Positions 7,342 through 48,317 of a stretch of 64,000 nucleotides of DNA are shown in pieces. The stretch spans positions 8,398-72,397 of the forward strand of contig LCEX01000008.1 of assembly GCA_000995415.1 (NCBI GenBank), written 5' to 3'. Under the pieces are notes generated by a model. The model was given only the letters and a program-made list of their open reading frames with translations. It searched no databases and was not told the origin of the DNA. A program made the translations under genes and the position numbers. Positions within the stretch are counted from its first letter, which is position 1. Each line of letters opens with the position of its first letter. The DNA is from Candidatus Gottesmanbacteria bacterium GW2011_GWC1_43_10 (lineage in GTDB: Bacteria > Patescibacteriota > Microgenomatia > UBA10105).

Positions 7342-7443
7342 TGCCTAATTGTAGGTGAAAATGCCTATATTTGCAATCTAAACTGAGGGTAAGATATTAT
7401 TTCCACCCGAATCCTTAAGGCCCGCAGGCCGAGGGATCTTACG

Positions 7444-8955: not shown

Positions 8956-9082
8956 TATTTAGTTTTGTCATCCCACAATCTGCCGGCTGGCGGAGGGAAT
9001 TTAAATTATTATTTATAGATTATCCGATCCCTCCAAATGGAGACAGGCAAGTTGAATAATGACAAGGTGTCCGGCTTCATTT

Positions 9083-10177: not shown

Positions 10178-10185
10178 ACAAGTTG

Positions 10186-11046: not shown

Positions 11047-11140
11047 TAATTATCCAATAATCCAATTTCAAATTCTCAAATTATCCAATTTTTTATTGGT
11101 ACTTATTGGATAATTGGATAATTTGCTGATTGGATAATTT
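11047..11140. repeat. AT-rich word-palindrome (ATTATCCAAT / ATTGGATAAT arms) between uxs and the gmd-like gene
   Basis: ATTATCCAATAATCCAAT...ATTGGATAATTGGATAAT imperfect inverted repeat. Confidence 0.5.
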
Positions 11141-12103: not shown

Positions 12104-12245
12104 AAAACCCCCTATAAAAAAATTAAAATGTAAAAATCAAAATTACAATGTAAAAACCTAAAATTTTATAATTTTAAACTGTCATTTTATTTGGCAAAAC
12201 CAGATCTAGCTCCGCTAAACATTTTGCATTTTAAATTTTAGATTA
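12104..12245. repeat. AT-rich intergenic repeat (AAAATGTAAAAATCAAAAT / AACTGTCATTTT words), homologous to 13539..13650
   Basis: Shares TTAAAATGTAAAWATCAAAAT...CAATGT and TTTTAAACTGTCATTTT blocks with the ugd-upstream region. Confidence 0.5.
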
Positions 12246-13538
12246 TTACGATCTACCAACACCAAAATACTCAAATCCCTGCTTTCTCACCTTTACCGGA
12301 TCATACATGTTTCGACCATCAAAAAGAATGGGATGTTTCATGCTAGTAAGAATTTTCTTGAGATCAAGCTGTTTAAATTCATTCCATTCTGTGATCACGA
12401 CTAATGCATCGACACCACTCGCCACTTCATAAGCATTTTCAAGATAAGTTACATTATGCAATAATTTTTTAGCATTTTCCATGGCCACCGGATCAAAGGC
12501 CCGGATTTTGGCACCCGCATTTTGGAGGGCCGTGATGATTTTGACAGAAGGCGCTTCACGCATATCGTCGGTATTTGGCTTGAAAGACAAACCCAAAATG
12601 CCAACAGTTTTACCCTTGATAGGCGACAAAACAGTTTCTATTTTTTTAATGAAAAACTTGCTCGCTTGTTCATTGATATTATCGACTGATTTAAGAAGTT
12701 GAAAATCATAACCGACACTATCGGCAATCGCAATCAAAGCTTTTACATCTTTGGGGAAACAACTGCCTCCATAACCCACACCGGGATAGAGAAATGCCCG
12801 CCCGAGACGATTATCGAGACCCACCCCTTCCAATACCTTTTCCACATCAGCCCCTACTCGTTCTGATAAAAAAGCTACTGCATTGGCAAAAGAAATTTTG
12901 GTCGAAAGGAGTGAATTGGAGGCATACTTAATCATTTCGGCAGTTTCGATGTTTGAAATAACCGTTTTGCCATTAATTGGTTTATGCAGATCCACTATCA
13001 CTTTTTGGGCTTTGGGACTTTCTACTCCTATCACTACCCGATCTGGATGCATGGTGTCATTTAAAGCTGTACCTTCACGTAAAAATTCAGGACACGATGC
13101 AATATCATAAGTTGCTTTGTCAGGTTTGACACTCGCAACAATCGCGCCTACCTTACGATTGGTTCCCGGAGGTACAGTACTTTTGGTAGCCACAACTGTA
13201 TAACCATCCAAATTTTTACCGATTTCCCCAGCCGCGGCAAATACGGCTGTCAAGTCTGCTTCACCGGTTTTTTTGGGAGGAGTACCTACTGCAATAAACA
13301 CGACTTCAGATTCTGGTACGGCTTCTTCATATTTGAGAGTGCATTTGATACGGCCGGCTGCCAAATTCCTGCGCACCATTTCTTCGAGTCCCGGCTCATA
13401 AAAAGGCATGATCCCTTTTTTGAGTTTTTCGATTTTTTCAGGTGTGTGCCCGACAATCCACACCGTATTACCCAAATCAGCAAAAACAGCTGCAGTTACC
13501 AGTCCGACATACCCATGGCCAATAAAAGCAATTACCAT
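12246..13538 (-). CDS. ugd: UDP-glucose 6-dehydrogenase
   Basis: VIAFIGHGYVGLVTA Rossmann region, GGSCFPKDV catalytic Cys motif, 430 aa. Confidence 0.85.
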   Translation of the reverse strand: MVIAFIGHGYVGLVTAAVFADLGNTVWIVGHTPEKIEKLKKGIMPFYEPGLEEMVRRNLAAGRIKCTLKYEEAVPESEVVFIAVGTPPKKTGEADLTAVFAAAGEIGKNLDGYTVVATKSTVPPGTNRKVGAIVASVKPDKATYDIASCPEFLREGTALNDTMHPDRVVIGVESPKAQKVIVDLHKPINGKTVISNIETAEMIKYASNSLLSTKISFANAVAFLSERVGADVEKVLEGVGLDNRLGRAFLYPGVGYGGSCFPKDVKALIAIADSVGYDFQLLKSVDNINEQASKFFIKKIETVLSPIKGKTVGILGLSFKPNTDDMREAPSVKIITALQNAGAKIRAFDPVAMENAKKLLHNVTYLENAYEVASGVDALVVITEWNEFKQLDLKKILTSMKHPILFDGRNMYDPVKVRKQGFEYFGVGRS

Positions 13539-13650
13539 AAATTTAAAATGTAAATATCAAAATGCAAAATGACAATGTGAAATTTTAAAATTAGTATATC
13601 TTTTTACATTTTTAACTGTCATTTTGATTTTTGCATTTTGCACTTTGCAT
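13539..13650. repeat. AT-rich imperfect palindrome (AAAATGCAAAATGACAATG / CTGTCATTTTGATTTTTGCATTTTGCAC) between the rmlD-like gene and ugd
   Basis: Inverted arms built from the same words as 12104..12245. Confidence 0.5.
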
Positions 13651-14526
13651 TTATATGATCCCTTGTCTCTTTATTTCTTCCAAACCTTGACCAAATGCCC
13701 TCATTGTAACTCCCAAAGAAGCTATTTTATCATTTTTAAGACGTAACTCAAGGGGCCGCGGCGCCCGACCTTGGTAATAGCCGGCAGTTTTGACACCAGT
13801 TATCAATCGCTCATCAAAACCAAACTGTCTGGCTAAAACCTGTGCCGCCTCAAAGGGTGAAAGGGACGCGCCTCCTACTCCATGATAAATTCCTGAGGCA
13901 TTTTTAGCAATAAGGGTTTCAATGCTTTTGGCAATATCATCTATAAAAGTAGGCGTAAAAATATGGTCAGTTAAAACCGTCAATGATTCGTTTCTCTGCA
14001 AACGATGATACAGTGTATGAACAAAATCTTTTTTAGGGCCACCGCATTTGGCACGGTAAGGATAAGCTATGCGGAGTACTATATTTTGAGAGCTATTAAG
14101 CACCACTTGTTCACCTGCATATTTAGTTTGACCATACCAATTGATAGGATGCGGAATTGAATTTTCGGTATAAACTTTTTCCGTTCCGTCAAATACAAAA
14201 TCTGTAGAGATATAAAGCACTCGTTTATGAAACTGGTCTGCTGCTTCTACAATATTTCTGGTGCCTTCGACATTGATTTGCCAGGCAGCGCCTGTTTGAC
14301 CTGCTGATTTATCTTTTTCGCAGCCGTCAACATCGGTTTTGGCAGCCATATGGATCACCCATGCGCTTTGTGAATTTTGTATGTGTTTTGTGACGACTTC
14401 TTTTTGGGTGATATCAACTCCAGTTGCCAAACTTAAATCGGTAAATGAGTATTTGGAATCCAAAAGTTCCACTATTCGTGTACCCACCAAACCTGAAAGG
14501 CCAGTACCAAGGATTACTTGTTTCAT
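13651..14526 (-). CDS. dTDP-4-dehydro-6-deoxyhexose reductase (RmlD family)
   Basis: 291 aa. YISTDFVFDG matches the RmlD STDYVFDG motif. N-terminal GTGLSGLVG. Confidence 0.65.
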   Translation of the reverse strand: MKQVILGTGLSGLVGTRIVELLDSKYSFTDLSLATGVDITQKEVVTKHIQNSQSAWVIHMAAKTDVDGCEKDKSAGQTGAAWQINVEGTRNIVEAADQFHKRVLYISTDFVFDGTEKVYTENSIPHPINWYGQTKYAGEQVVLNSSQNIVLRIAYPYRAKCGGPKKDFVHTLYHRLQRNESLTVLTDHIFTPTFIDDIAKSIETLIAKNASGIYHGVGGASLSPFEAAQVLARQFGFDERLITGVKTAGYYQGRAPRPLELRLKNDKIASLGVTMRAFGQGLEEIKRQGII

Positions 14527-14615
14527 AACACAAAAGTTCCCCCTCTTAAGGCAAGTGCGAGGGTTAGGGGGAGTTATGAAGTTATTTGAATAACCCCTCC
14601 TTATCTCCCCTTAAT
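14527..14615. repeat. GC-rich compound palindromic intergenic repeat (family 2) between rfbB and the rmlD-like gene
   Basis: CCCCCTCTTAAGGCAAGTGCGAGGGTTAGGGGGAGTTATGAAGTTATTTGAATAACCCCTCCTTATCTCCCCTTAATTTAAGGGGAGG shares the GAGTTATGAA...ATAACCCCTCC core with 25030..25140. Confidence 0.6.
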
Positions 14616-15632
14616 TTAAGGGGAGGTATTATACTGCATTTTATAATAATTTTGGTACTCACCACTCTTTACGTGTTTCCACCATTCTTGATTTTCTTTA
14701 TACCAATTGATAGTAGTTTGCAAATAAGTATCAAAATCATGAAGTGGTGCCCAACCAAGTTCTTTTTGAATTTTGGTCCAATCAATCGCGTATCTGCGGT
14801 CGTGACCCGGTCGATCTTTGACAAATTCAATCGTTGACTCAGTCTTACCCATAAGACCCGCGATTTTCTTAACGATTTCGAGATTTGAAATGTCGCTAGT
14901 TAATCCTCCCACACAATAAGTCTCACCAATTTTACCTTTTTGAAAAACCGTTTCAATTGCCCGACAGTGATCTTCTACGTATAACCAATCACGCACGTAC
15001 AATCCATCTCCATAGACCGGAACTTTTTTGCCTTCAAGTAAATTGGTGATTGCAAGTGGAATCAACTTCTCCGGATGCTGAAAGGGGCCGTAGTTGTTGG
15101 AACAATTGGTGATCGTAGTTGGAAGTCCATAAGTGTGATAATAAGCCCGGACAAGATGATCAGATCCGGCTTTACTCGCAGAATAAGGGCTGCGGGGATC
15201 ATAAATCGTGGTCTCGGAAAATTTTTCCGTGGTATTTAATTTTAGTGCACCAAAGACTTCATCGGTGGAGACATGATGGAAATGTTTGACTTTTTGTTTG
15301 ACTGCGGCGTCCAACAAAACTTGCGTTCCCAATACATTGGTACGCACAAAAATGGCCGGACCGGAAATAGATCTATCAACATGCGATTCAGCTGCAAAAT
15401 GGACCACTGTATCAACACCCTGCATGACTTTCTCAACTATTGAAGAATCCGTAATGTCGCCTTTGATAAATGAATAGTGGGGATTTTTTTCAACTTCAAC
15501 CAGGTTTTCCAGATTTCCAGCATAAGTTAATGCATCAAGGTTGACGATCGTGTCATCGGGATGATTTTTCAGCCAGTACAAAATAAAGTTGGAGCCGATA
15601 AATCCCGCTCCGCCAGTTACAAGTAATTTCAT
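14616..15632 (-). CDS. rfbB: dTDP-glucose 4,6-dehydratase
   Basis: MKLLVTGGAGFIGSNF...LDALTYAGNLENL, YSASKAGSDHLVRAY, 338 aa. Confidence 0.9.
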   Translation of the reverse strand: MKLLVTGGAGFIGSNFILYWLKNHPDDTIVNLDALTYAGNLENLVEVEKNPHYSFIKGDITDSSIVEKVMQGVDTVVHFAAESHVDRSISGPAIFVRTNVLGTQVLLDAAVKQKVKHFHHVSTDEVFGALKLNTTEKFSETTIYDPRSPYSASKAGSDHLVRAYYHTYGLPTTITNCSNNYGPFQHPEKLIPLAITNLLEGKKVPVYGDGLYVRDWLYVEDHCRAIETVFQKGKIGETYCVGGLTSDISNLEIVKKIAGLMGKTESTIEFVKDRPGHDRRYAIDWTKIQKELGWAPLHDFDTYLQTTINWYKENQEWWKHVKSGEYQNYYKMQYNTSP

Positions 15633-16171
15633 AAATTTGAACTTTTGTTTAAATATACTTCAAGTAGATGAAACGCGCAAATTGTTGGTCCATCTAATAT
15701 TTTTCCTTGTGCAATCATCATGTCTACTTTTTTAATGGATATTTTTTGTACTTCAAGAAGTTCATTTTCTTCTGGATGAGGTTTCCCCAAAGAAAGACTT
15801 TGCGCGACAAAGACGGAAACTTTTTGATTTGAAATTGAATTGGCAATATAAAAACTACCGATCTCCCTCCATTCTTTGGCCGTAATTCCTGTTTCCTCCC
15901 CAAGTTCTTGTTGCGCCATTTCAAGCGGAGTTTTATTTACAACAGACCCCATAGGAAATTCCCAGGAGTAACGCGATGTTGGATAACGATATTGACTAAC
16001 TAAATAGGTTTCTTTTTTATCGTTTAAAGGAATTACAACAGAAAAATTACGACGTTCTATACTATAATACGGAGCTCGAACATTATTTGGACGTATAACA
16101 TCATGTTCGTAAACGGTCAAGTACGGACTTGAATAAACTTTTTTTGAAGACAGTGTTTGCCATTTTTTCAT
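15629..16171 (-). CDS. Nudix hydrolase (NDP-sugar / ADP-ribose pyrophosphatase-like)
   Basis: Degenerate Nudix box GSVVNKTPLEMAQQELGEETG. 180 aa. ATGA overlap with rfbB. Confidence 0.6.
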   Translation of the reverse strand: MKKWQTLSSKKVYSSPYLTVYEHDVIRPNNVRAPYYSIERRNFSVVIPLNDKKETYLVSQYRYPTSRYSWEFPMGSVVNKTPLEMAQQELGEETGITAKEWREIGSFYIANSISNQKVSVFVAQSLSLGKPHPEENELLEVQKISIKKVDMMIAQGKILDGPTICAFHLLEVYLNKSSNL

Positions 16172-16591
16172 TTACTTCACTATTCCTTGCTCGAGTTCTT
16201 CTTGAGTATAATCCACCTGCTCATCTTTTAGTGATGGATCATAAGGCGGATCTGGATAATTGATGAGCCAAGCTTCCTCATCACTGACACATTGTAGACC
16301 AGTAGGTGTTTCTCTGGGAATATATATCCGTTTACCAGGCGTTAAGATATGTTCCTCTCTTTTGCCGGAAATATAAAGAATGATTTTCATCGTCCCTTTA
16401 AGGCAAATATAGCGGGCGGCGCGGATGCGGTGCAAATGATAGCCTTTGAATGCTCCCGGCAAAGCTGCCGAAATATAAGCTATAGTTTTATCACCTTCTT
16501 TAAACAGTTCCATGAGCCACCCATTTTCTTTTCCGTCCAGGTCATAGGTCGCGACTTTTTTGGCTGTGTCTTCAATCACTTGAGTGATCAT
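16172..16591 (-). CDS. FdtA/WxcM-like cupin (dTDP-4-keto-6-deoxyhexose 3,4-ketoisomerase-like), standing in the RmlC position
   Basis: 139 aa. KGYHLHRIRAARYICLKGTMKIIL parallels the FdtA RGFHAHKKLEQVLVCLNGSCRVIL His-His motif. Confidence 0.5.
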   Translation of the reverse strand: MITQVIEDTAKKVATYDLDGKENGWLMELFKEGDKTIAYISAALPGAFKGYHLHRIRAARYICLKGTMKIILYISGKREEHILTPGKRIYIPRETPTGLQCVSDEEAWLINYPDPPYDPSLKDEQVDYTQEELEQGIVK

Positions 16592-16593
16592 AT

Positions 16594-17331
16594 TTATTCG
16601 TTTCCTGTTTTCACGAGTTCTGCGACTAAATTGTTCGCGCGCAGCAGTTCATCATAAGAAGTCCCGGCATCAATCCACCAACCTTCCATCACTTCGCAGG
16701 TCATCGTACCTTCTTTCAAGTACGAGTTATTTAAATCAGTGACCTCCAATTCGCCCCGGGCTGATGGCTTGAGCCGGCGAATAAAATCATAGACACGTGC
16801 GTCATACATGTAAATTCCGGTTTGAGCCAGATCTGATTTGGGATGCTCGGGTTTTTCTTCTATCGAAACCACTTTGTGGTGTTTGTCCAACTCTATCACT
16901 CCGTACTGTTTGCTGTCGGTTGGCATATGCTTGGCAAAGACTTTGGCGCCTTTGGCTTGTCTTTCAAAATCAGTGACCGCACTACTTAAGTTGTGGGTAA
17001 AAATATTATCACCTAAAATCACCAGAATTTTTTCCTGACCGGAAAAATCTTCACCCAGAGCAATAGCTTGAGGGATGCCACCAGCATCTTCCTGGATGGC
17101 ATAGGATAATTTGAGTTGAAAATCCCGCCCGGATTTAAGTAAGTTTATAAACTGGGGCAAATGTTCAACCGAACTGGTGATCAAAACCTCTTGGATTCCC
17201 GCCCGTTGCATCGATTCCAACGCATAAAAAATCATCGGTTTGTGGTAAACCGGCAACAAATGTTTATTTGTCACCCAAGTCAAGGGTCTCAATCGAGTCG
17301 CTTTGCCTCCGGCTAAAATCACGCCCTTCAT
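16594..17331 (-). CDS. rmlA: Glucose-1-phosphate thymidylyltransferase (short form)
   Basis: GVILAGGKATRLRPLTWVTNKHLLPVYHKPMIFYALESM matches the RmlA N-terminus. 245 aa. Confidence 0.75.
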   Translation of the reverse strand: MKGVILAGGKATRLRPLTWVTNKHLLPVYHKPMIFYALESMQRAGIQEVLITSSVEHLPQFINLLKSGRDFQLKLSYAIQEDAGGIPQAIALGEDFSGQEKILVILGDNIFTHNLSSAVTDFERQAKGAKVFAKHMPTDSKQYGVIELDKHHKVVSIEEKPEHPKSDLAQTGIYMYDARVYDFIRRLKPSARGELEVTDLNNSYLKEGTMTCEVMEGWWIDAGTSYDELLRANNLVAELVKTGNE

Positions 17332-20793: not shown

Positions 20794-21120
20794 TCAGATA
20801 TCAAATTTTGATGCGGCGTATTGAGGTAGCTCAATTGGTTTCCCGTTTACCGGGATTTTAAGTGTCCACCCCAATGTGTTTGCGACAGCCACTCCCACGC
20901 GTACGCCGGTAAACGATCCGGGACCGGGATGAACTTTAATATCCGTCAAATCTTTGAGGGTTAACTTTTCACTTTGTAAAGCTTTTTCAATGAGCGGTAG
21001 TACATTTTGCGATCTGGTTTCTTTGTTTGTGACTTCTACATATTCTTTGCGTATCCCATCAATAATTAGAGCCACTGTGGTTTTACCACTATCTGACGTG
21101 TCAATATATAGAGTTATCAT
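20794..21120 (-). CDS. tsaB: tRNA t6A37 biosynthesis protein TsaB (short, N-terminal-domain-only form)
   Basis: ITLYIDTSDS...HPGPGSFTGVRVGVAVANTLGWTLKIPV is the YeaZ/TsaB signature. Only 108 aa. Confidence 0.65.
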   Translation of the reverse strand: MITLYIDTSDSGKTTVALIIDGIRKEYVEVTNKETRSQNVLPLIEKALQSEKLTLKDLTDIKVHPGPGSFTGVRVGVAVANTLGWTLKIPVNGKPIELPQYAASKFDI

Positions 21121-21124
21121 AATC

Positions 21125-21236
21125 TATTTGTTCATAACTCCACCAAACCTCCTCTTGTCTCAAGAGGAGAAATTCCCTCCCTTAAATTAAGAAAGGGCTA
21201 GCCTGCCTGCCGGCAGGCAGGGGTGAGTTATTAAGT
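21125..21236. repeat. Family-2-related palindromic repeat between tsaB and tsaC, including a CCTGCCTGCCGGCAGGCAGG palindrome
   Basis: TTCATAACTCCACC...CCTCCTCTTGTCTCAAGAGGAG...CCTGCCTGCCGGCAGGCAGGGGTGAGTTATTAAG. Confidence 0.5.
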
Positions 21237-21809
21237 AATTAATTTAACACTCCCTTGTCTCAAAATCTTTACTGGTTCTTGAGAACAATCAACTACAGTT
21301 GAAGCTTGACCACTAGTTGTACCTCCAGGCAAAACCAAGTCTACGAGCTTAATAAGTTCCGGATCCATCTCAGATCGGGAAATGGGAGTTGGCGCCCCAT
21401 GAAAATTGGCCGAAGGGCCCAAGATGGGCACTCCCGCTTGTTTAATTATTTTGAGTAACTGCGGCTGGTTTGGCATCCGAAGTCCCAAGTTTTCACGACC
21501 ACCACGAACAGGGGAGTAGACCAAATCTTTTTTACATTTATAAATAATGGTGAGTGCCCCCGGCCAATACTTCTCAACCAAATGTCGCACAATCTGGGAA
21601 GGGGAATCCCAGTAGGAAAGTGCCATTTCAACTTCGGAAACCAATACCGGTGTCGCCTGCATCAAGGGCCGCCTGCGAATCCGGAATAACCGATCAATTG
21701 CCTGAGGTCTATCAATCCGACACCCCATACCCCAAACCGTATCAGTCGGAAAAATGATAATACCACCCTGGTTTAATACTTCAATTGCTTTTTCTACTCC
21801 AATATCCAT
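21231..21809 (-). CDS. tsaC: L-threonylcarbamoyladenylate synthase (YrdC/TsaC)
   Basis: GGIIIFPTDTVWGMGCRI...RIRRRP YrdC motifs. 192 aa. Confidence 0.8.
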   Translation of the reverse strand: MDIGVEKAIEVLNQGGIIIFPTDTVWGMGCRIDRPQAIDRLFRIRRRPLMQATPVLVSEVEMALSYWDSPSQIVRHLVEKYWPGALTIIYKCKKDLVYSPVRGGRENLGLRMPNQPQLLKIIKQAGVPILGPSANFHGAPTPISRSEMDPELIKLVDLVLPGGTTSGQASTVVDCSQEPVKILRQGSVKLIT

Positions 21810-22158
21810 AATATAATTCTCAAATTTTCGTTTTTAACCCTTGAAGTGTTTTGCGACATTTTTCTTTTTTAATGCCATTTGAAGTGTTTGCGTAGATTTT
21901 CTTACAAGTGAGTAAGGTGAGGAAACGGCCTCCTGGTCCGAGGTGCTCCTCCCGATACGAACGCAGTTAGAAAATCAACCTGCCTGCCGGCAGGCAGGGC
22001 AAACCTTCACTGGCCGGCTTTCTTTGCTTCATTTCTTGGGCAAGCAAGAAATGAAGAATGATAAAAAAATCAATTTGAACTATGACTTATGTAATTTATT
22101 TTATAAGATTGCCGCGTCGGGACGTACCGTCTGGTACATCCCTCCTCGCAATGACAAA

Positions 22159-22617
22159 CTACGTAACCCTTATTAAATTTTTAATTGAAACAAGTCTTTC
22201 TGTTTCCGACATTTGCTTAAATTCAATTCTAATTACTTGTTTTGGTAATCCTAACCCCAACCTCTCCGGCCACTCGATAACAACTAAATTTTCCGGATTT
22301 GCAAAAATTTCCTCCAAACCCAAACTTTCAACCTTATTTTGTTCACCCAACCGATACAAATCAATATGAATTAATTTTTTAAAAATAGAATTTTTTAAAA
22401 GGTATTCCCTACTCAAAATAAAAGTGGGGGAGAGGATGCGTTTTTTGATACCTAATCCGCGTGCCAATCCTTGGACAAAAGTAGTTTTCCCACTCCCCAA
22501 TTCCCCACTTAGAGTGAGGATAGTAGCCTGTTTCCCTTTTCCATTTTTTATTAAAGAATGTCCAATTTTTTCGCCAAGTTTTTGAGTTTCTTGGGCGCTT
22601 GTGGTAAGTATTTCCAT
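22159..22617 (-). CDS. tsaE: tRNA t6A37 biosynthesis ATPase TsaE
   Basis: TLSGELGSGKTTFVQGLARGLGI...SPTFIL. 152 aa. Confidence 0.8.
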   Translation of the reverse strand: MEILTTSAQETQKLGEKIGHSLIKNGKGKQATILTLSGELGSGKTTFVQGLARGLGIKKRILSPTFILSREYLLKNSIFKKLIHIDLYRLGEQNKVESLGLEEIFANPENLVVIEWPERLGLGLPKQVIRIEFKQMSETERLVSIKNLIRVT

Positions 22618-41314: not shown

Positions 41315-42700
41315 ATGAAACAATTCAGCAATAATCATTCTAGTTGGATGCATATTGATTTGAACTCCTGTTTTGCGACCATTGAACAACAGGCCAATCC
41401 GTTACTTCGTGGCAAACCCATTGTCGTAGCTGCTTATACCACGCCGCGGGGTTGTATATTGGCTCCTTCAATCGAAGCCAAAAAATATGGCGTCAAAACC
41501 GGAATGCAAGTGCAAGAAGGCAAACTGCTTTGTCCAAAGTTAATCGTACTTCCCTCTGACCCACCCAAGTACCGCTTCGTCAATCGTGCACTTCTGAAAT
41601 TGTTTAACGAATATTCGCCGGAAGTTTCCGTGCGTTCAATTGACGAGATGCTATTGAATTTTAGTTATTTTCTTTCTTCATTTGATCCCGTCATTCTGGG
41701 GAGGATCCGCCAGGCGGCGGAGACGACTCCAGAATCCGAAAAAATAAGAACGGATCCTGGACAAGCCAGGATAACTATTCTTTCTGAAAGATCCTTAATC
41801 GACATTGCCCATGAAATCAAACGGCGTATTAAAAGTGAAATTGGCGAGTGGTTGACAGTGTCAATTGGCATCTCCACCAATCCGTACTTGGCCAAACTGG
41901 CTGCCGGCATCCATAAACCTGATGGACTAGATGAGATTAATGAGTCCAATATTTTGAATATTTTATCTTCTCTGAAACTGGTTGACCTCCCATATATCAA
42001 AGAACGCAATGCGTTGCGTTTACTATCTGTAGGCATCAAAACTCCGGTGGATTTTTATTTCGCCTCTTTGCAACAACTCAAAACTGCATTTCAATCTATC
42101 AACGGTTACTATTGGCACCTGCGCCTTCACGGACTTGCCGTTGATGAAGTTGAGTGGCAACGCAAATCTATTGGACATCAATATGCACTCCCCAAACGGA
42201 CGACAAATGTCAAAGAAATCGAACAATTGTTGTGTAAATTAGTAGAAAAAGTAGGCCGAAGGTTAAGAGACAACAATTTAACTGCTTGCGGCATGCATTT
42301 AGCTATTGGCTACGACGATGGATTTTGGCACCTGGGACACAAATTCCCACAAAAAATGTATGCTTCAAGTGATTTATTTGCGGCAAGTAAAATACTGCTT
42401 AAAGAAGCTTTACCCTTAAAACCAGTTCGTTCTCTGGCAATTACTTGTTTTGCATTGGAAGAAAATCTCTATACGCAGACAAGTATTTTTCAAGATGAAC
42501 TCAAAAAACGGGCTATTACAAAAGCTATGGATCGAGTCAATGATAAATGGGGAGAATTTTCGGTGATTCCCGGCACCATGTTAGGCATTCAACGGGAAGG
42601 GAAAATTTTGGATCGCATTGCTTTTGGCCGGGTCATGGACATGCCGGAAATTGTCCTAAAAGAAGAAACACGGTGGAAAAGAGAAAGATATGCACCATAA
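41315..42700 (+). CDS. dinB: Y-family DNA polymerase (DinB/Pol IV-like)
   Basis: HIDLNSCFATIEQQANPLLRGKPIVVA, SIDEMLLNF, ISTNPYLAKLAAGIHKPDGL. 461 aa. Confidence 0.85.
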   Translation: MKQFSNNHSSWMHIDLNSCFATIEQQANPLLRGKPIVVAAYTTPRGCILAPSIEAKKYGVKTGMQVQEGKLLCPKLIVLPSDPPKYRFVNRALLKLFNEYSPEVSVRSIDEMLLNFSYFLSSFDPVILGRIRQAAETTPESEKIRTDPGQARITILSERSLIDIAHEIKRRIKSEIGEWLTVSIGISTNPYLAKLAAGIHKPDGLDEINESNILNILSSLKLVDLPYIKERNALRLLSVGIKTPVDFYFASLQQLKTAFQSINGYYWHLRLHGLAVDEVEWQRKSIGHQYALPKRTTNVKEIEQLLCKLVEKVGRRLRDNNLTACGMHLAIGYDDGFWHLGHKFPQKMYASSDLFAASKILLKEALPLKPVRSLAITCFALEENLYTQTSIFQDELKKRAITKAMDRVNDKWGEFSVIPGTMLGIQREGKILDRIAFGRVMDMPEIVLKEETRWKRERYAP

Positions 42701-43236: not shown

Positions 43237-43321
43237 AGTGTCTAGGTACTTTAGACCAAACTAGAGAATATTGCAAATCACGGTTTTGGTATTTACTTAT
43301 CGTTGTTATTTCTATTTTTTG

Positions 43322-43480
43322 ATATAATGTATCTACCTTCGGGGTCGGGTGTGATTCCGTATCGGTGGTACAGCCCACGAGTCGCAAGACATGATGCTGT
43401 GTAACTCAGCAGCCGACCGTATAGTCGGGAGTCCTATCCGCCAAGTGGCGGATCGGGACAGTGCAATCACTTGCACAATA
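43322..43480 (+). promoter_or_regulatory. FMN riboswitch (RFN element)
   Basis: CTTCGGGGTCGGGTGTGATTCCGTATCGGTGGTACAGCCCACGAGTCGC matches the RFN 5' consensus CUUCGGGGCAGGGUGAAAUUCCCGACCGGCGGUAGUAAAGCCCGCGAGC. AGCAGCCGACCGTATAGTCGGGAG matches the 3' GAAGCCGACAGUAUAGUCUGGAUGGGAG. Confidence 0.75.
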
Positions 43481-43535
43481 AGAAGGCAACACATGCGCCT
43501 AAAAAATAGGCGGGATTGTTGTGTGTATAAATTTC

Positions 43536-43560
43536 CCCCGAAGCCAAAGGGGGATTTTTT
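43536..43560 (+). terminator. Candidate riboswitch expression-platform terminator (CCCCC-loop-GGGGG then T-run) abutting the start codon
   Basis: TTTCCCCCGAAGCCAAAGGGGGATTTTTT directly precedes the ATG at 43561. GGGGGA may double as the ribosome-binding site. Confidence 0.45.
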
Positions 43561-44457
43561 ATGGAAAAAAAATATGGATTTCTGTTTATTGTCGTTGCCG
43601 CCACACTCTGGAGCTTGGATGGATTACTCCGAAGAAGTCTCTACTCGCTTCCACCGACAGTTGTAGTTTTGTATGAACATATCATAGGCCTGGTTTTTCT
43701 TTTACCTTTCGCTCTAAAACACATACCAAAACTCAAAACACTAGATAAAAAAGATATCGGGGCAATTATCTGGATTGCATTTTTGGGAGGAGTATTGGGA
43801 ACTGTTTTTTATACCACAGCTCTCGGAAAAATCAACTATATTCAGTTTTCAGTAGTGATTCTTTTACAAAAACTGCAACCTATCTTCGTTATTTTGACAG
43901 CGAAACTACTTCTTAAGGAACCAATAACCAAAAATTATCTCATCTGGGCTCTAGTTGCCATGATTGGCGCTTATTTTATTTCATTTCCAACGCTTAGTAT
44001 CAATTTTCAAAATGACCTGCCGACTATTACAGCAGCACTTTTTGCAGTAGCGGCAGCGTTCTGTTGGGGGTCATCCACGAGTTTTAATAAGTATGCGCTG
44101 CGCAAAGTCCCTTCAGAATTTGCCCTGGCATTGCGTTTTTTATTTACTATACCTTTAGCATTTATTTTTGTATTATTCACCAATTCAACGCCCGCTCTCA
44201 CCGCACTTTCAAACAGTCAATTGTCAACGCTGGTATTAATTGCACTTTCAACCGGTATGGTAGCCATGGTGATTTATTTTCGTGGACTCAAATATACGCC
44301 AGCACGTTTGTCAGCTATTGCCGAACTTGCCTGGCCGGTATCTGCACTATTTATTGGCTACTATTTTTTCCATGAGCGCCTGGTATTAACTCAAATTGTG
44401 GGAGCAGCTATACTTCTTTTTTCCATGCTAAAAGTCACCCGACTGCAAAAAACATGA
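43561..44457 (+). CDS. EamA/DMT-family transporter, putative riboflavin importer (RibN-like)
   Basis: 298 aa, 10 TM, duplicated EamA halves. Downstream of the FMN riboswitch and overlapping the riboflavin kinase gene by 4 nt. Confidence 0.75.
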   Translation: MEKKYGFLFIVVAATLWSLDGLLRRSLYSLPPTVVVLYEHIIGLVFLLPFALKHIPKLKTLDKKDIGAIIWIAFLGGVLGTVFYTTALGKINYIQFSVVILLQKLQPIFVILTAKLLLKEPITKNYLIWALVAMIGAYFISFPTLSINFQNDLPTITAALFAVAAAFCWGSSTSFNKYALRKVPSEFALALRFLFTIPLAFIFVLFTNSTPALTALSNSQLSTLVLIALSTGMVAMVIYFRGLKYTPARLSAIAELAWPVSALFIGYYFFHERLVLTQIVGAAILLFSMLKVTRLQKT

Positions 44458-44834
44458 ATCCAATCAACGTGACACTTCCTGTTACGGTCGTCAAAGGCAA
44501 AGGTCGAGGGAAAAAAATGGGAATTCCGACACTCAATTTTGCGATCCCCAAAACTCTGAAACTTCCTCATGGCGTCTATGCCGGTTGGTTAATCGCTGGG
44601 AAATATAAATATCAAGCAGCGATTCATTTCGGCCCAAGACCACAGTTTAATGAAACTGACCCGTCACTTGAGGCATATCTATTGCAAAATGCAATCATCC
44701 CGCAAAACACAGAACTACAGCTTACGTTTAGCGCATTTATCCGTAATGTTCAAAAGTTTCCGTCAGTTTCCGAAATGTTAAAAAGAATTGCAGTTGATGT
44801 AAAAGAAATCAACAAAATCTTACTCCAGCTCTAG
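44454..44834 (+). CDS. Monofunctional riboflavin kinase (RibF C-terminal-domain type)
   Basis: VVKGKGRGKKMGIPTLNF (GxGRG..G.PTxN), LEAYLL, IRNVQKFPSVSEMLKRIAVDV. 126 aa. Confidence 0.8.
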   Translation: MNPINVTLPVTVVKGKGRGKKMGIPTLNFAIPKTLKLPHGVYAGWLIAGKYKYQAAIHFGPRPQFNETDPSLEAYLLQNAIIPQNTELQLTFSAFIRNVQKFPSVSEMLKRIAVDVKEINKILLQL

Positions 44835-45500
44835 ACTCGCCCAAAGATATCGACAAGCCCAGGAGCGATAAGGTTTCCATTTGGAAGAAATTTTCTCTGC
44901 TTGTTTGAGTGTAGGATGCGATTTAAGTTGATACAATTTTTTGATCGCATTTTTGAGTCCCTGATCTCCATAAGAAAACACGTCATCTCGTCCCAAACTA
45001 AACATCAAAAACATCTCCGCTGTCCAACGACCTATGCCTTTAACCTGTGTTAGATGAGTAATTATTTCTTCATCCGAAAGTTTATGGATTACGTCAAATT
45101 TTAATATTCCTGTTTGCGTTTTGGTTGCCAAATCTTTGATATAAGAGATTTTAGCGTAGGAAATGCCGCAACTGCGAATTTTTTCGATATCCATTTCTCT
45201 GACTTGTTGGGGCATGGGGAAATTGACATGAGGAAACAATTTTAAAAAGCGGGCAAAAATGGTATCCGCAGCTTTGATAGAAAGTTGTTGACTCACAATT
45301 GATTCAACTAGCGCCCGATAAAAATCCGCGTCCTGTCGTCTTTTAAAAGGGGGTACTTGGCTGATGACTGTTGCAAGAATGGGGTCTACTTTTTTTAAAT
45401 GATTAATTATCTTCTTACTCATAGTTTGCTTGCACCGTTTTGCCATTTTTGCCAGTGGAAATTCCCACCACCAGATATTCTGCATTTTCAGAACTAACAT
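44820..45500 (-). CDS. HhH-GPD DNA glycosylase (AlkA-like 3-methyladenine glycosylase II)
   Basis: VKGIGRWTAEMFLMFSLGRDDVFSYGDQGL HhH-GPD loop plus catalytic Asp. Likely start is an internal Met (about 45422-45446), removing the overlap with the next gene. Confidence 0.7.
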   Translation of the reverse strand: MLVLKMQNIWWWEFPLAKMAKRCKQTMSKKIINHLKKVDPILATVISQVPPFKRRQDADFYRALVESIVSQQLSIKAADTIFARFLKLFPHVNFPMPQQVREMDIEKIRSCGISYAKISYIKDLATKTQTGILKFDVIHKLSDEEIITHLTQVKGIGRWTAEMFLMFSLGRDDVFSYGDQGLKNAIKKLYQLKSHPTLKQAEKISSKWKPYRSWACRYLWASLELE

Positions 45501-45837
45501 TTTCCATCGTATGGATTGACTTAAAAGGTACTACCACTGCGTCGCCTTTTTCCATAATCCTTTCTTCCTCATCAATAATGACTTTAATTTTTCCAGACAT
45601 AATAATAAATATTTCCTGCATGTCTTCATGATAGTGGGCCAGGAATTTTTTCCCTTTTGGCAATTTCGCCCAATTGATCATTTGCACATTTCCCTTTACC
45701 AAATCTTTATACGTCAATAATACTTTTTTTAAGACTTGGGGATTTTTGCTGTCTTCATGACTGGCAGGAATATAAGATAGATTTTTACCACGAATTAGTT
45801 TCATAATCTGACGACGTCGGAAATTTAGCTTTTTCAT
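45415..45837 (-). CDS. Cupin-domain protein
   Basis: FLAHYHEDMQEIFIIMSGKIKV...GDAVVVPFKSIHTMEN two-His cupin motifs. Confidence 0.55.
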   Translation of the reverse strand: MKKLNFRRRQIMKLIRGKNLSYIPASHEDSKNPQVLKKVLLTYKDLVKGNVQMINWAKLPKGKKFLAHYHEDMQEIFIIMSGKIKVIIDEEERIMEKGDAVVVPFKSIHTMENVSSENAEYLVVGISTGKNGKTVQANYE

Positions 45838-46370
45838 GTTCTTCCGGTCTGGAGAATTTTTACTTTTTCAATAACTCCGTACTCCATGCCACCTAATGCA
45901 TAGATTTTGTCCAGTGCTGATTTGTCAGATCCATGAATTATTTCAATTTTTCCGATCAATATTGAGAACGTTTCCATTTCTACAGTTTGCATTAAGGTAC
46001 ATTCAAAATTGAGAACTGCATCTTTTAGTATTGGGCATTTATTTTTCTTCGCTGGTAAAAACTGAAGAGCCATCTGTTTGAGTTTATTCACTTCTCTTCC
46101 ACTCACTGTCCCACAGTATAAGATATCTTTTAGTTGTTCTTGTGATGGATAAGCATAAGTAAATTCTTTAGTTGCCAAAATAACCTCTCGCGAATAATTT
46201 CCATGAGACAAACCAATACAAACAACCATAGGACTCTTATATTCTGAAGATACTACCTGCCAATTAACCGGACATAAGTTTACCTTATTTTTTCTTTGTG
46301 TGATGACTGCGCCAATTACTTCTGGTTTTTCCAGTTTTGATTTTAGCTCTATATTAGGTGACAAGTTCAT
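45834..46370 (-). CDS. Flavin reductase-like FMN-binding domain protein
   Basis: NLCPVNWQVVSS...MVVCIG...LNFECTLMQTVEMETFSILIGKIEIIH...ALGGMEYG fits the PF01613-type pattern. Confidence 0.5.
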   Translation of the reverse strand: MNLSPNIELKSKLEKPEVIGAVITQRKNKVNLCPVNWQVVSSEYKSPMVVCIGLSHGNYSREVILATKEFTYAYPSQEQLKDILYCGTVSGREVNKLKQMALQFLPAKKNKCPILKDAVLNFECTLMQTVEMETFSILIGKIEIIHGSDKSALDKIYALGGMEYGVIEKVKILQTGRT

Positions 46371-46381
46371 ATAAATTTATC

Positions 46382-46957
46382 TTAAACTAGCATTGATTTG
46401 AATTTGCGAAAATCTGCCTGAATCAACGGCAAATATTTGGGAAACCGGATCACAGCTGCCGGATGGAGTGTGACTAAATACTTCCGGCCGTCTTTGGCGA
46501 GTATTTTCCCGTGATCTTTGAGAATCGGGACCGAGAGTTCAAGTACCCCCAAACAAGCAACCCTACCAAGCAGAACAATTATTTTGGGATTGATCACAGC
46601 CAGTTGTTGATGTAAATGTTTTCGGCCATGTGCTATTTGCACTTGGTCTGGAGTACCCCGATCAGGTAAGTATTTAACAGGACTGGTGATAAATACGTCT
46701 GCTTCACTAAAACCGGCTTCGCGAATAAGCCGGCGCAGTAGTTGGCCGGACCTACCGATAAATGGGCGCCCAGTTTTGGCTTCTTCTCTACCTGGGGCCT
46801 CACCAATAAATATCACCCGGGCATCCGGATCTCCTTCTCCTGGCACCGATTTGCCACTGGTTCTTTCGTGACAAATTTTGCAGCTCTCAATTTCCCGGGC
46901 TATTTTTTGTAGTTGTTTGCTTTTGTCCATTTCTAACCTAAAGATACCACGCCCCAT
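46382..46957 (-). CDS. Uracil-DNA glycosylase family 4 (Fe-S type)
   Basis: CxxC...GEGDPDARVIFIGEAPGREE, RPFIGRSG, LGRVA motifs. 191 aa. Confidence 0.85.
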   Translation of the reverse strand: MGRGIFRLEMDKSKQLQKIAREIESCKICHERTSGKSVPGEGDPDARVIFIGEAPGREEAKTGRPFIGRSGQLLRRLIREAGFSEADVFITSPVKYLPDRGTPDQVQIAHGRKHLHQQLAVINPKIIVLLGRVACLGVLELSVPILKDHGKILAKDGRKYLVTLHPAAVIRFPKYLPLIQADFRKFKSMLV

Positions 46958-47014: not shown

Positions 47015-47449
47015 TTACTCTACTACAACACTTCCAAATTGAGACGGGTTCAAATGATTGTGATACTTATACGTCCCTGCCTTATCAAAAGTCAGTGAAA
47101 CCGATTGTCCGGCTGCCACATCGCCCAAGTTCAACGGTGGATACACCAAATGTGTCGGATGTACCGCCGAACTGACATTGCCTGCAACATCACTTTTATT
47201 GGTCCAGGTGACTTTTGTTCCCACTTTTACAGTCAATGCTTGCGGTTCAAAACCGGTTGCCATAATCGACACGCTACTCGCATTTTCCGCCATCGCGGGT
47301 TCAGCTGGTTTGGTGGCTTCGTTGGTAGTGGAAGACGTTTCATTGGTTGTCGGAGCTACGACCGTATTTTCGCCTTTACTCTTTAAAACAAACCACAACC
47401 CAGCTACCACCACTATCGCTACCAATACTCCCATTAAGGTTTTGCTCAT
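47015..47449 (-). CDS. Secreted cupredoxin-like (plastocyanin-fold) protein lacking the canonical Cys ligand
   Basis: Signal anchor, Thr-rich region, then FEPQALTVKVGTKVTWTN...HPTH...GTYKYHNHLNP. Confidence 0.35.
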   Translation of the reverse strand: MSKTLMGVLVAIVVVAGLWFVLKSKGENTVVAPTTNETSSTTNEATKPAEPAMAENASSVSIMATGFEPQALTVKVGTKVTWTNKSDVAGNVSSAVHPTHLVYPPLNLGDVAAGQSVSLTFDKAGTYKYHNHLNPSQFGSVVVE

Positions 47450-47522: not shown

Positions 47523-48317
47523 TCACTTATATTTAAAGAAAACCAAGTTGCCTAAAAGTAATGCTAATACCAACGAATCGGCCAGTATTACTGGCAAAAA
47601 TGCACTAAATTGCGGTAACGAGACTAGTAATGAGATGATCCCCACAAAAAACCCGAACCAGATTTGTGGGGAGTAATGTATAGGTGTCGTCACCGGCTCG
47701 GGTAACATCACCAGGGAAAAGAAAAGTGTCGTCGGATCCAGATTTAAGTGAAAATTTTGGCCGCTACCGACTTGAATCACCCAGGTTCCTAAAAGATACA
47801 CACTCCAAAAAGCGCCAATTGTCCCCCACCGCCGCAGCCTGATGACAGAAATCAACCCGGGTACCAGTAAGAGTAAAAATCCACTTAATAATTTGAAATT
47901 AGTTAGACTAAGCTGTTGCCACGAAACTCCCCACCAGGAAATTTCATGACTAAATACGGTTCCCACCAAAAATGATCCTAATCCGGCTGGATTGAAAATA
48001 TGTCGTTTGTCAATGCGTAACAAATGTTTCGCGGCCATAGCTATCACTCCGACTGCAACTATTTCGTATAGAGGTAGATTTGGTGCGACTAAAAGCCCAA
48101 TAATAAGTCCGGTAACTAACCCGGCTTTAGGGAAAAACGGTTTAATGCTACGCAATTTTAAAAATATCAGATCAGCCAAAACAGTTGAACCAACGGCCAG
48201 TAAAAATGAGGTTAACTTGGAAAATTGAGGTTGATATAAAAAGGCGCTAAAAAAGATCAAAACCAATACCGCCGCCATCTGGATTTTGGGGATTTTAATT
48301 AGTAATTTAAGTTGCAT
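47523..48317 (-). CDS. RnfD/NqrB-like polytopic membrane protein (short form)
   Basis: 264 aa, about 8 TM, RHIFNPAGLG motif. Confidence 0.4.
   Translation of the reverse strand: MQLKLLIKIPKIQMAAVLVLIFFSAFLYQPQFSKLTSFLLAVGSTVLADLIFLKLRSIKPFFPKAGLVTGLIIGLLVAPNLPLYEIVAVGVIAMAAKHLLRIDKRHIFNPAGLGSFLVGTVFSHEISWWGVSWQQLSLTNFKLLSGFLLLLVPGLISVIRLRRWGTIGAFWSVYLLGTWVIQVGSGQNFHLNLDPTTLFFSLVMLPEPVTTPIHYSPQIWFGFFVGIISLLVSLPQFSAFLPVILADSLVLALLLGNLVFFKYK

What the first reader, a model, noticed from the sequence alone, without database searches (positions are those of the whole stretch)
43322..44834. FMN riboswitch controlling an EamA/DMT transporter plus monofunctional riboflavin kinase: a putative riboflavin salvage operon
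The leader at 43322-43480 matches both conserved halves of the RFN element. A small GC hairpin plus T-run runs straight into the ATG. The downstream genes are a 10-TM EamA/DMT transporter and a stand-alone riboflavin kinase domain (GxGRG..G.PTxN). No ribDEBAH genes are in the window. This architecture suggests riboflavin import by a DMT-type carrier followed by phosphorylation to FMN. DMT-type riboflavin importers are rare (RibN). For a reduced-genome organism this would be the key flavin acquisition route. FAD synthetase is not seen here.
Basis: partly seen in the sequence, partly recalled or inferred. Interest (0 to 1): 0.7.

Follow-up and report, generated by a model that had tools for sequence, protein, structure and literature searches.

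The report
Expanded FMN riboswitch, riboflavin salvage operon
A reduced-genome (CPR) bacterium controls a two-gene riboflavin uptake-and-phosphorylation operon with a real FMN riboswitch that carries two extra hairpins at a solvent-exposed spot in its core, a recurrent variant that the standard Rfam threshold misses.

Summary

**Operon.** An FMN aptamer (43336-43486), a terminator/SD-sequestering hairpin that runs into the ATG, a 10-TM EamA/DMT transporter (43561-44457) and an overlapping stand-alone riboflavin kinase (44454-44834) are all present. No rib or FAD-synthetase domain was found in the scanned window ORFs.

**Aptamer.** It is not canonical. RF00050 gives no hit at its gathering score (56.7 vs 66.2 bits). 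P1 closes only across a 46-nt insertion of two hairpins placed directly after the FMN-pairing adenine, where canonical aptamers have the bulged, solvent-facing U100.

- The insertion recurs in 14 of 47 related genome leaders and about 28 metagenome leaders.
- It shows full covariation, and all FMN-contact nucleotides are kept.
- It also precedes a riboflavin synthase gene (L171).
- Rfam's threshold finds 10/10 canonical sister leaders and 0/10 variants.

**Linkage.** The transporter sits next to an FMN aptamer and/or a kinase gene in 72 of 80 loci and is fused to the kinase in three.

**Verdict.** This is an FMN-repressed riboflavin salvage operon. The kind is known (RibN-like logic). The new elements are the structural riboswitch variant and a plausible answer to how CPR bacteria acquire flavins. 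The function of the hairpins is unknown.

The parts
43320..43328 (+). Extended -10 promoter-like element TGaTATAAT; the transcript is predicted to start near 43335
   Evidence: Read from the sequence. TATA(A/C)T-like elements sit 8-12 nt upstream of P1 in many related leaders. The consensus scanner did not report it because no -35 is present. Inferred.
43336..43344 (+). Switching sequence: P1 5' strand CCUUC (43336-40) plus J1/2 GGGG (43341-44, includes the FMN-phosphate contacts G10/G11)
   Evidence: Pairs with GAAGG 43482-86. Alternatively pairs with CCCCGAAG 43536-43 (duplex -14.6 to -15.3 kcal/mol).
43345..43430 (+). FMN aptamer core, helices P2-P6, ending at A43430 (equivalent of the FMN-pairing A99)
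   Evidence: RF00050 local match at 56.7 bits, E 2.3e-12. 38 invariant columns among 15 variants. Contact nucleotides conserved.
43431..43459 (+). Inserted hairpin 1 (12 bp with one bulge, loop CAAG), starting directly after the A99 equivalent
   Evidence: Folds alone. All five basal pairs covary across 15 leaders. Recovered by RNAalifold on natural sequences. Aligned to the modelled helix.
43461..43476 (+). Inserted hairpin 2 (6 bp, loop UCAC), 1 nt after hairpin 1
43477..43486 (+). Retained purine-rich junction AAUAA plus P1 3' strand GAAGG
   Evidence: P1 closes across the insert in 15/15 variants. All P1 pairs covary.
43487..43521 (+). Intermediate hairpin between aptamer and terminator (CAACA/UGUUG enclosing CGCCUA/UAGGCG); role unknown, probably a spacer or folding aid
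   Evidence: Predicted in all folds. Comparable hairpins occur in related leaders.
43534..43560 (+). Intrinsic terminator that also sequesters the SD: UCCCCC / GGGGGA stem, 9-nt loop, U6. GGGGGA (43549-54) is the likely Shine-Dalgarno, ending 6 nt before the ATG
   Evidence: The same CCCCGAA..GGGG+U-run design, complementary to the switching sequence, occurs in 24 of 48 leaders.
43561..44457 (+). EamA/DMT transporter, 298 aa, 10 TM; predicted riboflavin importer
   Evidence: Pfam EamA x2. 100% identical to a Candidatus Gottesmanbacteria protein. Linked to an FMN aptamer and/or RFK in 72/80 loci.
44454..44834 (+). Monofunctional riboflavin kinase, 126 aa, start overlapping the transporter stop (ATGA)
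   Evidence: Pfam Flavokinase. Matches only the C-terminal part of RibF models. Aligned to solved RFK modules with the motif and Glu conserved.

Best explanation
This is an FMN-repressed riboflavin salvage operon of a CPR bacterium (Candidatus Gottesmanbacteria).

**How it works**
1. Transcription starts near 43335 and first produces an FMN aptamer.
2. When FMN is plentiful it binds the pocket and stabilises P1 (43336-40 with 43482-86). This locks away the switching sequence CUUCGGGG. The downstream UCCCCC/GGGGGA hairpin plus U-run then forms, terminates transcription, and buries the ribosome-binding site.
3. When FMN is scarce the switching sequence pairs with CCCCGAAG in the terminator's 5' arm. 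Read-through follows and the SD is free.
4. The mRNA then yields a 10-TM EamA carrier that imports riboflavin and a translationally coupled kinase that traps it as FMN.

**The unusual feature**
The aptamer is a structural variant. Two hairpins of variable sequence are inserted directly after the FMN-pairing adenine, at the position of the bulged, solvent-facing U100 of canonical aptamers. This turns the six-helix junction into an eight-helix one while leaving the pocket intact.

**Shown versus inferred**
- Shown: the anatomy, the covariation, the conserved contact nucleotides, and the gene linkage.
- Inferred: FMN binding, the direction of transport, and any role of the hairpins. Possible roles are a delay between completion of the pocket and closure of P1, tuning of P1/P6 stacking, or a tolerated expansion.
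For: **Aptamer**
- RF00050 match, E 2.3e-12.
- End-to-end match to variant model R1, which was trained without the window: 86.8 bits.
- All contact nucleotides conserved.

**Insertion**
- 15/15 inserts fold alone into exactly two adjacent hairpins, mean z -4.8.
- P1 closes across the insert in 15/15.
- 15/15 tested pairs have compensatory changes, 99.6% of cells are paired vs about 51% when slid, and 0/500 shuffles reach the score.
- RNAalifold on 20 untrimmed sequences recovers P1-P6 and both hairpins.
- U100 is bulged into solvent in the FMN-bound structure (PMC3201879).

**FMN specificity**
- The same variant precedes riboflavin synthase in L171, and a one-hairpin form does so in L084.

**Switch**
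- Bound-like fold -90.5 vs antiterminator fold -89.9 kcal/mol.
- Switching-sequence/terminator complementarity in 24/48 leaders.
- J1/2 is part of the switching sequence, and FMN acts by stacking P1 on P6 (PMC7573352).

**Salvage**
- FMN aptamer in 47/80 loci, RFK in 41/80, neither in 8/80.
- Three transporter-kinase fusions.
- RFK catalytic motif conserved.
- No rib or FAD_syn domain in the scanned window ORFs.
Against: - There is no experimental ligand-binding or transport data.
- The Rfam curated threshold is not reached.
- EamA proteins are often exporters, and the nearest curated models are amino-acid/metabolite carriers, although far below their cut-offs.
- The closest solved relative is a choline carrier, LicB.
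- RibN also lets FMN in (PMC4418817), so the imported species is not proven.
- An insertion on the strand that joins P6 to P1 could change affinity or kinetics in unknown ways.
- The paired percentage is inflated because the register came from per-sequence folding.
- The rest of the genome was not examined, so a rib operon or an FAD synthetase elsewhere is not excluded.
Confidence: 0.8

Rival explanations
1. The insertion-bearing aptamer has changed its ligand, as the C. difficile FMN variants have. It would sense another flavin-like compound, or riboflavin itself, rather than FMN.
For: - It fails the RF00050 gathering score.
- The insert lies next to the FMN-pairing adenine.
- FMN-class variants with altered specificity exist and control transporters (PMC6298564).
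- Saccharibacteria-type relatives have GGGU instead of GGGG in J1/2.
Against: - The known specificity variants differ at the ligand-contact nucleotides (PMC6298564). Here all of them are conserved.
- The variant precedes riboflavin synthase as well as the transporter-kinase operon.
- Canonical and variant leaders alternate in front of orthologous transporters.
- The low score is explained by the insert breaking P1 in the model.
Confidence: 0.07
2. The EamA protein is not a riboflavin importer. It would export a flavin or another metabolite, or import FMN/FAD directly, and the kinase would be an unrelated neighbour.
For: - Many characterised EamA members are exporters. The weak NCBIfam hits are to amino-acid/amine carriers and YddG.
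- RibN admits FMN as well as riboflavin (PMC4418817).
- No orthology to RibN could be tested.
Against: - The switch is OFF-type (high FMN terminates), which is the logic of supply rather than disposal.
- The kinase is adjacent in 41/80 loci, overlaps the stop codon here, and is fused in three lineages. This makes sense only if the substrate needs phosphorylation.
- The NCBIfam scores are far below the equivalog cut-offs (81 vs 230 bits; 34 vs 300 bits).
Confidence: 0.1
3. The two hairpins belong to the expression platform, or are a protein- or second-ligand-binding element, rather than a passive part of the aptamer.
For: - They lie between the pocket and the 3' strand of P1, the regulatory strand.
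- The two-hairpin layout is strictly kept (0-1 nt before, 0-2 nt between).
- It occurs in at least five clades of the transporter tree, which suggests selection.
Against: - No nucleotide in either hairpin is conserved. Loops are generic (UUCG, GNRA, UACG and others), and stem length varies from 5 to 14 bp.
- No conserved complementarity to the switching sequence was seen.
- The hairpins occur with both terminator-type and SD-in-P1-type platforms.
- CPR aptamers also carry hairpin expansions in L2, L5 and L6, so expansion as such is common there.
Confidence: 0.25
4. The leader is a decayed, non-functional riboswitch remnant, and the sub-threshold Rfam score reflects that decay.
For: No hit at the gathering score anywhere in the window.
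Against: - 38 invariant core columns across divergent phyla.
- Compensatory changes in every tested helix.
- A conserved antiterminator design.
- z -4.5 for the whole leader fold.
Confidence: 0.02

Closest known systems
FMN riboswitch / RFN element (Rfam RF00050; F. nucleatum structure 3F2Q)
   Same: - Same P1-P6 core sequence.
- Same ligand-contact nucleotides.
- Same switching sequence (P1 5' strand plus J1/2) competing with a terminator.
- Same gene classes: riboflavin transport and synthesis.
   Different: - Two extra hairpins (31-69 nt in genome loci, 46 nt here) inserted in J6/1 directly after the A99 equivalent, in place of bulged U100. The junction has eight helices instead of six.
- The family model scores it below its gathering threshold: 0 of 11 variants pass, against 10 of 10 canonical sister leaders.
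RibN, the DMT/COG0697 riboflavin transporter of alpha- and gamma-Proteobacteria (PMC4418817; cited in PMC6298564)
   Same: - EamA-type carrier.
- Preceded by an FMN riboswitch, as in the alpha-proteobacterial members.
- Predicted flavin uptake.
   Different: - RibN orthologues were reported only in Proteobacteria.
- RibN is usually monocistronic; here the transporter is co-transcribed with, and sometimes fused to, a riboflavin kinase.
- This family is in CPR phyla.
- Orthology was not tested because no RibN sequence was available.
Specificity variants of the FMN riboswitch class (C. difficile subtypes 1 and 2; PMC6298564)
   Same: Rare relatives of the FMN aptamer that control transporter genes and were lumped with, or missed beside, the parent class.
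   Different: Those variants differ at the ligand-contact nucleotides and no longer bind FMN. This one keeps every contact nucleotide and differs by a structural insertion.
RibF/RibC bifunctional riboflavin kinase-FAD synthetase; monofunctional RFKs (B. subtilis RibR as recalled from memory; eukaryotic Fmn1/human RFK, 1NB0)
   Same: Same Flavokinase fold and motif. Best solved match is the RFK module of C. ammoniagenes RibF.
   Different: Only the kinase half is present (matches positions about 190-320 of RibF models). No FMN adenylyltransferase domain was found in the operon or in the scanned window ORFs.

Membership tests
FMN riboswitch (RF00050) | Score at or above the curated gathering threshold (66.2 bits) | tested here: not met
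   No hit in the whole-window scan. 56.7 bits, local, model 17-123/138. The same holds for 10/10 related variants, while 10/10 canonical sister leaders pass.
FMN riboswitch (RF00050) | Conserved core helices P2-P6 with the conserved junction sequences | tested here: met
   Alignment to the model consensus. 38 invariant columns among 15 variants. RNAalifold recovers P2-P6.
FMN riboswitch (RF00050) | Ligand-contact nucleotides G10, G11, G32, A48, G62, G84, A85, A99 | tested here: met
   All present at 43342, 43343, 43364, 43380, 43393, 43415, 43416, 43430. Contact list from PMC6298564.
FMN riboswitch (RF00050) | P1 helix closing the junction, with a short J6/1 (about 5 nt) | tested here: inconclusive
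   P1 exists and covaries. However, J6/1 holds a 46-nt two-hairpin insert, so P1 is met and the short J6/1 is not.
FMN riboswitch (RF00050) | Binds FMN and represses the downstream genes | not testable with these tools
   Inferred from the conserved pocket, the OFF-type platform, and the association with riboflavin synthase and kinase genes.
RibN riboflavin transporter family | EamA/DMT fold, about 10 TM | tested here: met
   Two EamA domains. Ten hydrophobic segments. Profile hit to the DMT carrier LicB.
RibN riboflavin transporter family | Orthology (reciprocal best hit) to R. leguminosarum / O. anthropi RibN | not testable with these tools
   No RibN sequence could be obtained. The supplements of PMC4418817 give locus tags only. 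No NCBIfam model for RibN matched.
RibN riboflavin transporter family | Riboflavin uptake activity (rescue of an E. coli ribB mutant) | not testable with these tools
   Experiment required.
Characterised EamA exporters (YddG; TIGR00950 carboxylate/amino acid/amine transporters) | Score above the NCBIfam equivalog cut-off | tested here: not met
   TIGR00950: 81 bits vs cut-off 230.2. YddG: 34 bits vs cut-off 300.
Riboflavin kinase (Pfam PF01687) | Domain score above cut-off and the G-x-G-R-G...G-x-P-T-x-N motif | tested here: met
   89.2 bits vs cut-off 19.6. GKGRGKKMGIPTLN present. Glu of the S-(L/V)-E segment aligned with C. ammoniagenes RFK.
Bifunctional RibF (riboflavin kinase / FAD synthetase) | N-terminal FMN adenylyltransferase domain | tested here: not met
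   The protein is 126 aa and matches only positions about 174-320 of the RibF models, all far below their cut-offs.

The most novel reading that the evidence does not exclude
The two hairpins may not be a neutral expansion. They could define a distinct eight-helix subclass of FMN riboswitch, gained repeatedly at the one solvent-exposed junction nucleotide. In that reading they separate completion of the ligand pocket from closure of P1 and so retune the sensitivity or timing of the switch in bacteria that live on scavenged riboflavin.

Together with the EamA-kinase module, this would be the flavin acquisition route that earlier CPR genome surveys could not find. It was hidden partly because the standard model misses the variant.
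Probability: 0.3. Interest if true: 0.7.

Novelty: new variant of a known kind. Interest (0 to 1): 0.55.

Why it matters
1. **Annotation gap.** A recurrent structural variant of one of the best-studied riboswitch classes is missed by the curated Rfam threshold (0 of 11 found). FMN regulation is therefore under-called in CPR genomes. An earlier survey of Parcubacteria reported no FMN riboswitch, no riboflavin transporter and no riboflavin kinase, despite FAD-dependent enzymes (PMC4508563).
2. **Flavin acquisition in CPR.** The transporter-kinase module is widespread across Microgenomates, Saccharibacteria and Paceibacteria-type genomes. It gives a concrete, testable answer to how these reduced bacteria obtain FMN. 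The FAD step is still unexplained.
3. **Riboswitch mechanism.** The insertion sits on the strand that links P6 to P1, the stacking interface through which FMN acts. These natural variants are a ready-made test of how much that junction can be altered.

Tried and rejected
- **Strict regexes for the RFN core** found only 13 of 48 leaders. I replaced them with an iterated nhmmer profile.
- **MAFFT on full variant aptamers** scrambled the hairpins. I used a spliced five-basal-pair alignment instead. A first attempt contained a typing error in one row and was discarded. RNAalifold on natural sequences served as an independent control.
- **My automatic P1-3' finder** on metagenome hits picked spurious 4-bp matches inside hairpins. 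Classification there rests on the direct listing.
- **My recollection that ImpX is an EamA protein was wrong.** It is an SLC52/RFT2 relative.
- **RibN comparison.** I could not obtain a RibN sequence because the supplements give locus tags only. I could not read Serganov 2009 or Vitreschak 2002, which are not held.
- **Literature searches** for CPR or Saccharibacteria FMN riboswitches, or for this module, found no prior description. The library covers open-access papers only.
- **The terminator scanner** missed the real terminator because its loop is 9 nt, and flagged a weaker hairpin instead.
- **Neighbour clustering** found no conserved third gene, in particular no FMN adenylyltransferase.
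- **About 43 of the 119 metagenome pattern hits** had no RFN core and were chance matches.
Full report
**What is in the window**

Reading 43300-43570 shows these features in order:
- an extended -10-like TGaTATAAT (43320-28);
- CCUUC-GGGG (43336-44);
- a stretch that aligns to the FMN riboswitch consensus up to ...AGUCGGGA (ends at 43430);
- two hairpins (43431-59 and 43461-76);
- AAUAA-GAAGG (43477-86);
- a further hairpin (43487-43521);
- UCCCCC-loop-GGGGGA followed by U6 and the ATG at 43561.

The ORFs are a 298-aa protein with two EamA domains and a 126-aa Flavokinase protein whose ATG overlaps the transporter's stop codon. The transporter is 100% identical to a protein of a Candidatus Gottesmanbacteria genome, so the organism is a CPR/Microgenomates bacterium.

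**Is the riboswitch real?**

At Rfam's curated threshold the whole window gives no hit. A sensitive scan of the leader gives RF00050 at 56.7 bits (gathering 66.2), E 2.3e-12. The match is local, covering model positions 17-123 of 138, so P1 is missing.

The reason is visible in the sequence. In canonical aptamers the core is followed by about five junction nucleotides and then the 3' strand of P1. Here 46 nt of two hairpins lie between them.

All nucleotides that contact FMN in the F. nucleatum structure are present: G10, G11, G32, A48, G62, G84, A85 and A99 (list from PMC6298564).

**Relatives**

A profile of 35 homologues fetched 80 genome loci, nearly all CPR. Some records carry implausible organism titles.

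An iterated nhmmer profile of the core finds an FMN aptamer directly upstream of the transporter in 47 of 80 loci. Thirty-three leaders have the ordinary ...GGGA-UGAAAGAAGG. Fourteen, plus the window, have two hairpins between GGGA and the purine-rich junction.

A metagenome pattern scan added about 28 more two-hairpin leaders. Twenty-six of these precede the same transporter family. One (L171) precedes riboflavin synthase, and a one-hairpin form (L084) does too. That association, together with the intact contact nucleotides, argues that the variant still senses FMN.

**Evidence that the insertion is structured**

- Each of the 15 inserts folds alone into exactly two hairpins. They start 0-1 nt after the core adenine and lie 0-2 nt apart, with mean z -4.8 against shuffles.
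- P1 closes across the insert in all 15.
- On an alignment of real sequence, with each hairpin trimmed to five basal pairs, all 15 pairs of P1, hairpin 1 and hairpin 2 show compensatory changes. 99.6% of cells pair, against about 51% for slid partners, and no shuffle of 500 reaches the covariation score. The register came from per-sequence folding, so the paired percentage is biased upward.
- As a control, RNAalifold on a plain MAFFT alignment of 20 untrimmed sequences independently predicts P1-P6 and both hairpins, with compensatory changes in each.
- A covariance model built from those 20, none of them the window, matches the window leader end to end (43333-43488, 86.8 bits). P1 and both hairpins fall in the modelled helices.
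- No nucleotide of the hairpins is conserved, and the loops are generic tetraloops.

**Where the insertion sits**

It follows the A99 equivalent directly. In the FMN-bound structure the next nucleotide, U100, is bulged out and faces the solvent, whereas 101-103 are held by second-shell contacts (PMC3201879). The variants keep a 3-5 nt purine-rich segment after hairpin 2. This explains how the pocket can tolerate the insert.

The site also lies on the strand that joins P6 to P1, and FMN is reported to act by stacking P1 on P6 (PMC7573352). An effect on switching is therefore conceivable but untested.

On an unbootstrapped NJ tree of the transporters, the variant leaders fall in at least five clades, two of them single leaders nested among canonical ones. 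This means repeated gain or repeated loss.

CPR aptamers also carry hairpin expansions in loops L2, L5 and L6, so expansion as such is common in this group.

**Practical consequence**

With Rfam's gathering score, 10 of 10 canonical sister leaders are found as full-length matches (69.9-98.1 bits). None of 10 variants is found, and neither is the window.

**Expression platform**

- With P1 forced and J1/2 unpaired, the leader folds to -90.5 kcal/mol with the terminator formed.
- With CUUCGGGG (43337-44) forced onto CCCCGAAG (43536-43), it folds to -89.9 kcal/mol with the terminator and the SD released.
- The same complementarity between switching sequence and terminator 5' arm occurs in 24 of 48 leaders.

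This is the usual OFF logic of FMN riboswitches. The 3' arm of the terminator contains the likely SD, so translation would also be blocked.

**Function of the genes**

- A riboflavin kinase gene lies next to the transporter in 41 of 80 loci. Only 8 loci have neither aptamer nor kinase.
- Three loci from different clades encode transporter-kinase fusions.
- No other neighbour is conserved.
- The kinase aligns over its full length with solved RFK modules and keeps the catalytic motif. It matches only the C-terminal half of RibF models.
- The transporter is far below the cut-offs of the curated EamA exporter families. Its closest solved relative is the choline carrier LicB.
- Pfam scans of 55 of the 67 candidate window ORFs found no riboflavin synthesis or FAD synthetase domain. 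The rest of the genome was not examined.

**Comparison with what is known**

- FMN riboswitches upstream of COG0697/EamA genes are described as common, and RibN is the characterised example (PMC6298564, PMC4418817).
- RibN orthologues were reported only in Proteobacteria (PMC4418817). I could not test orthology.
- The known FMN-class variants differ at contact nucleotides and lose FMN binding (PMC6298564). This one differs by a structural insertion.
- I found no description of such an insertion or of this CPR module in the papers I could search.
- A 2015 survey of Parcubacteria reported no riboflavin synthesis, kinase, transporter or riboswitch 'using the existing Rfam model', although FAD-dependent enzymes were present (PMC4508563).

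**Verdict**

The operon is an ordinary kind of system in an unusual lineage. The real surprise is the eight-helix aptamer variant that standard annotation misses. The role of the hairpins, the substrate of the carrier and the route to FAD remain to be tested.

Noticed in passing
L001, L003, L037, L051 (loop L2); L085, L125 (loop L5); L023, L041 (loop L6): CPR-type FMN aptamers carry further hairpin expansions at other peripheral sites. A similar module (e.g. CCCGUCCUUCG...CGGAGGGCAGG) appears in either of the two pseudo-symmetric loops L2 and L5.
   Followed up: no
L171 (reverse-complement of the stored locus; core ends at 576, ORF from about 690) and L084 9394-10050: A two-hairpin (L171) and a one-hairpin (L084) J6/1 variant precede riboflavin synthase genes (two Lum_binding domains each). 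L171 also has an RFK-like gene upstream. Some relatives therefore keep riboflavin synthesis under the same variant switch.
   Followed up: partly
L017, L020, L054, L071, L074 and about 20 metagenome loci: Saccharibacteria-type leaders have GGGU instead of GGGG in J1/2. They also use the 3' strand of P1 itself (GAAAGGGGAA, 5-8 nt before the start codon) as the Shine-Dalgarno, so P1 directly hides the ribosome-binding site.
   Followed up: partly
L085, L108, L195: A 32%-identical EamA protein with the same signature motifs (LW.ID..R, EH, LLQKLQP) sits behind a canonical FMN aptamer. The transporter family extends beyond the close CPR relatives.
   Followed up: no
window 45834-46370 (-), 47523-48317 (-), 47015-47449 (-): Within 4 kb downstream of the operon lie a Flavin_Reduct-domain protein, a stand-alone RnfD/NqrB-family membrane protein, and a cupredoxin. 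RnfD/NqrB is a family known to carry covalently bound FMN (from general knowledge). These are possible consumers of the salvaged flavin.
   Followed up: partly
window 41315-42700 (+), 44820-45500 (-), 46382-46957 (-): DNA-repair genes surround the operon: a Y-family polymerase, an HhH-GPD glycosylase, and a UDG-family protein. The polymerase is also near the transporter in four other loci. The 3' end of the glycosylase gene overlaps the 3' end of the kinase gene by 15 nt.
   Followed up: no
window 20794-22617 (-): A t6A gene cluster holds Sua5/TsaC, TsaE, and a 108-aa TsaD-like fragment that matches only positions 30-84 of the 264-position profile. The fragment may be a very short TsaB or a remnant.
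   Followed up: no
L001-L080 record titles: Many genome records with these CPR-type loci are titled 'uncultured Gammaproteobacteria', 'Candidatus Brocadia' or 'Candidatus Udaeobacter'. These bins are probably mislabelled or contaminated.
   Followed up: no
L127 (reverse-complement of the stored locus), ORF from about 15 nt after the aptamer: A canonical FMN aptamer precedes a membrane protein with no Pfam match. It may be another flavin transporter.
   Followed up: no
window 6577-17331 (-): A large cell-envelope glycosylation cluster: GT2 and PMT_2 glycosyltransferases, RmlA/RmlD-like enzymes, GDP-mannose-dehydratase-like epimerases, and a UDP-glucose dehydrogenase.
   Followed up: no
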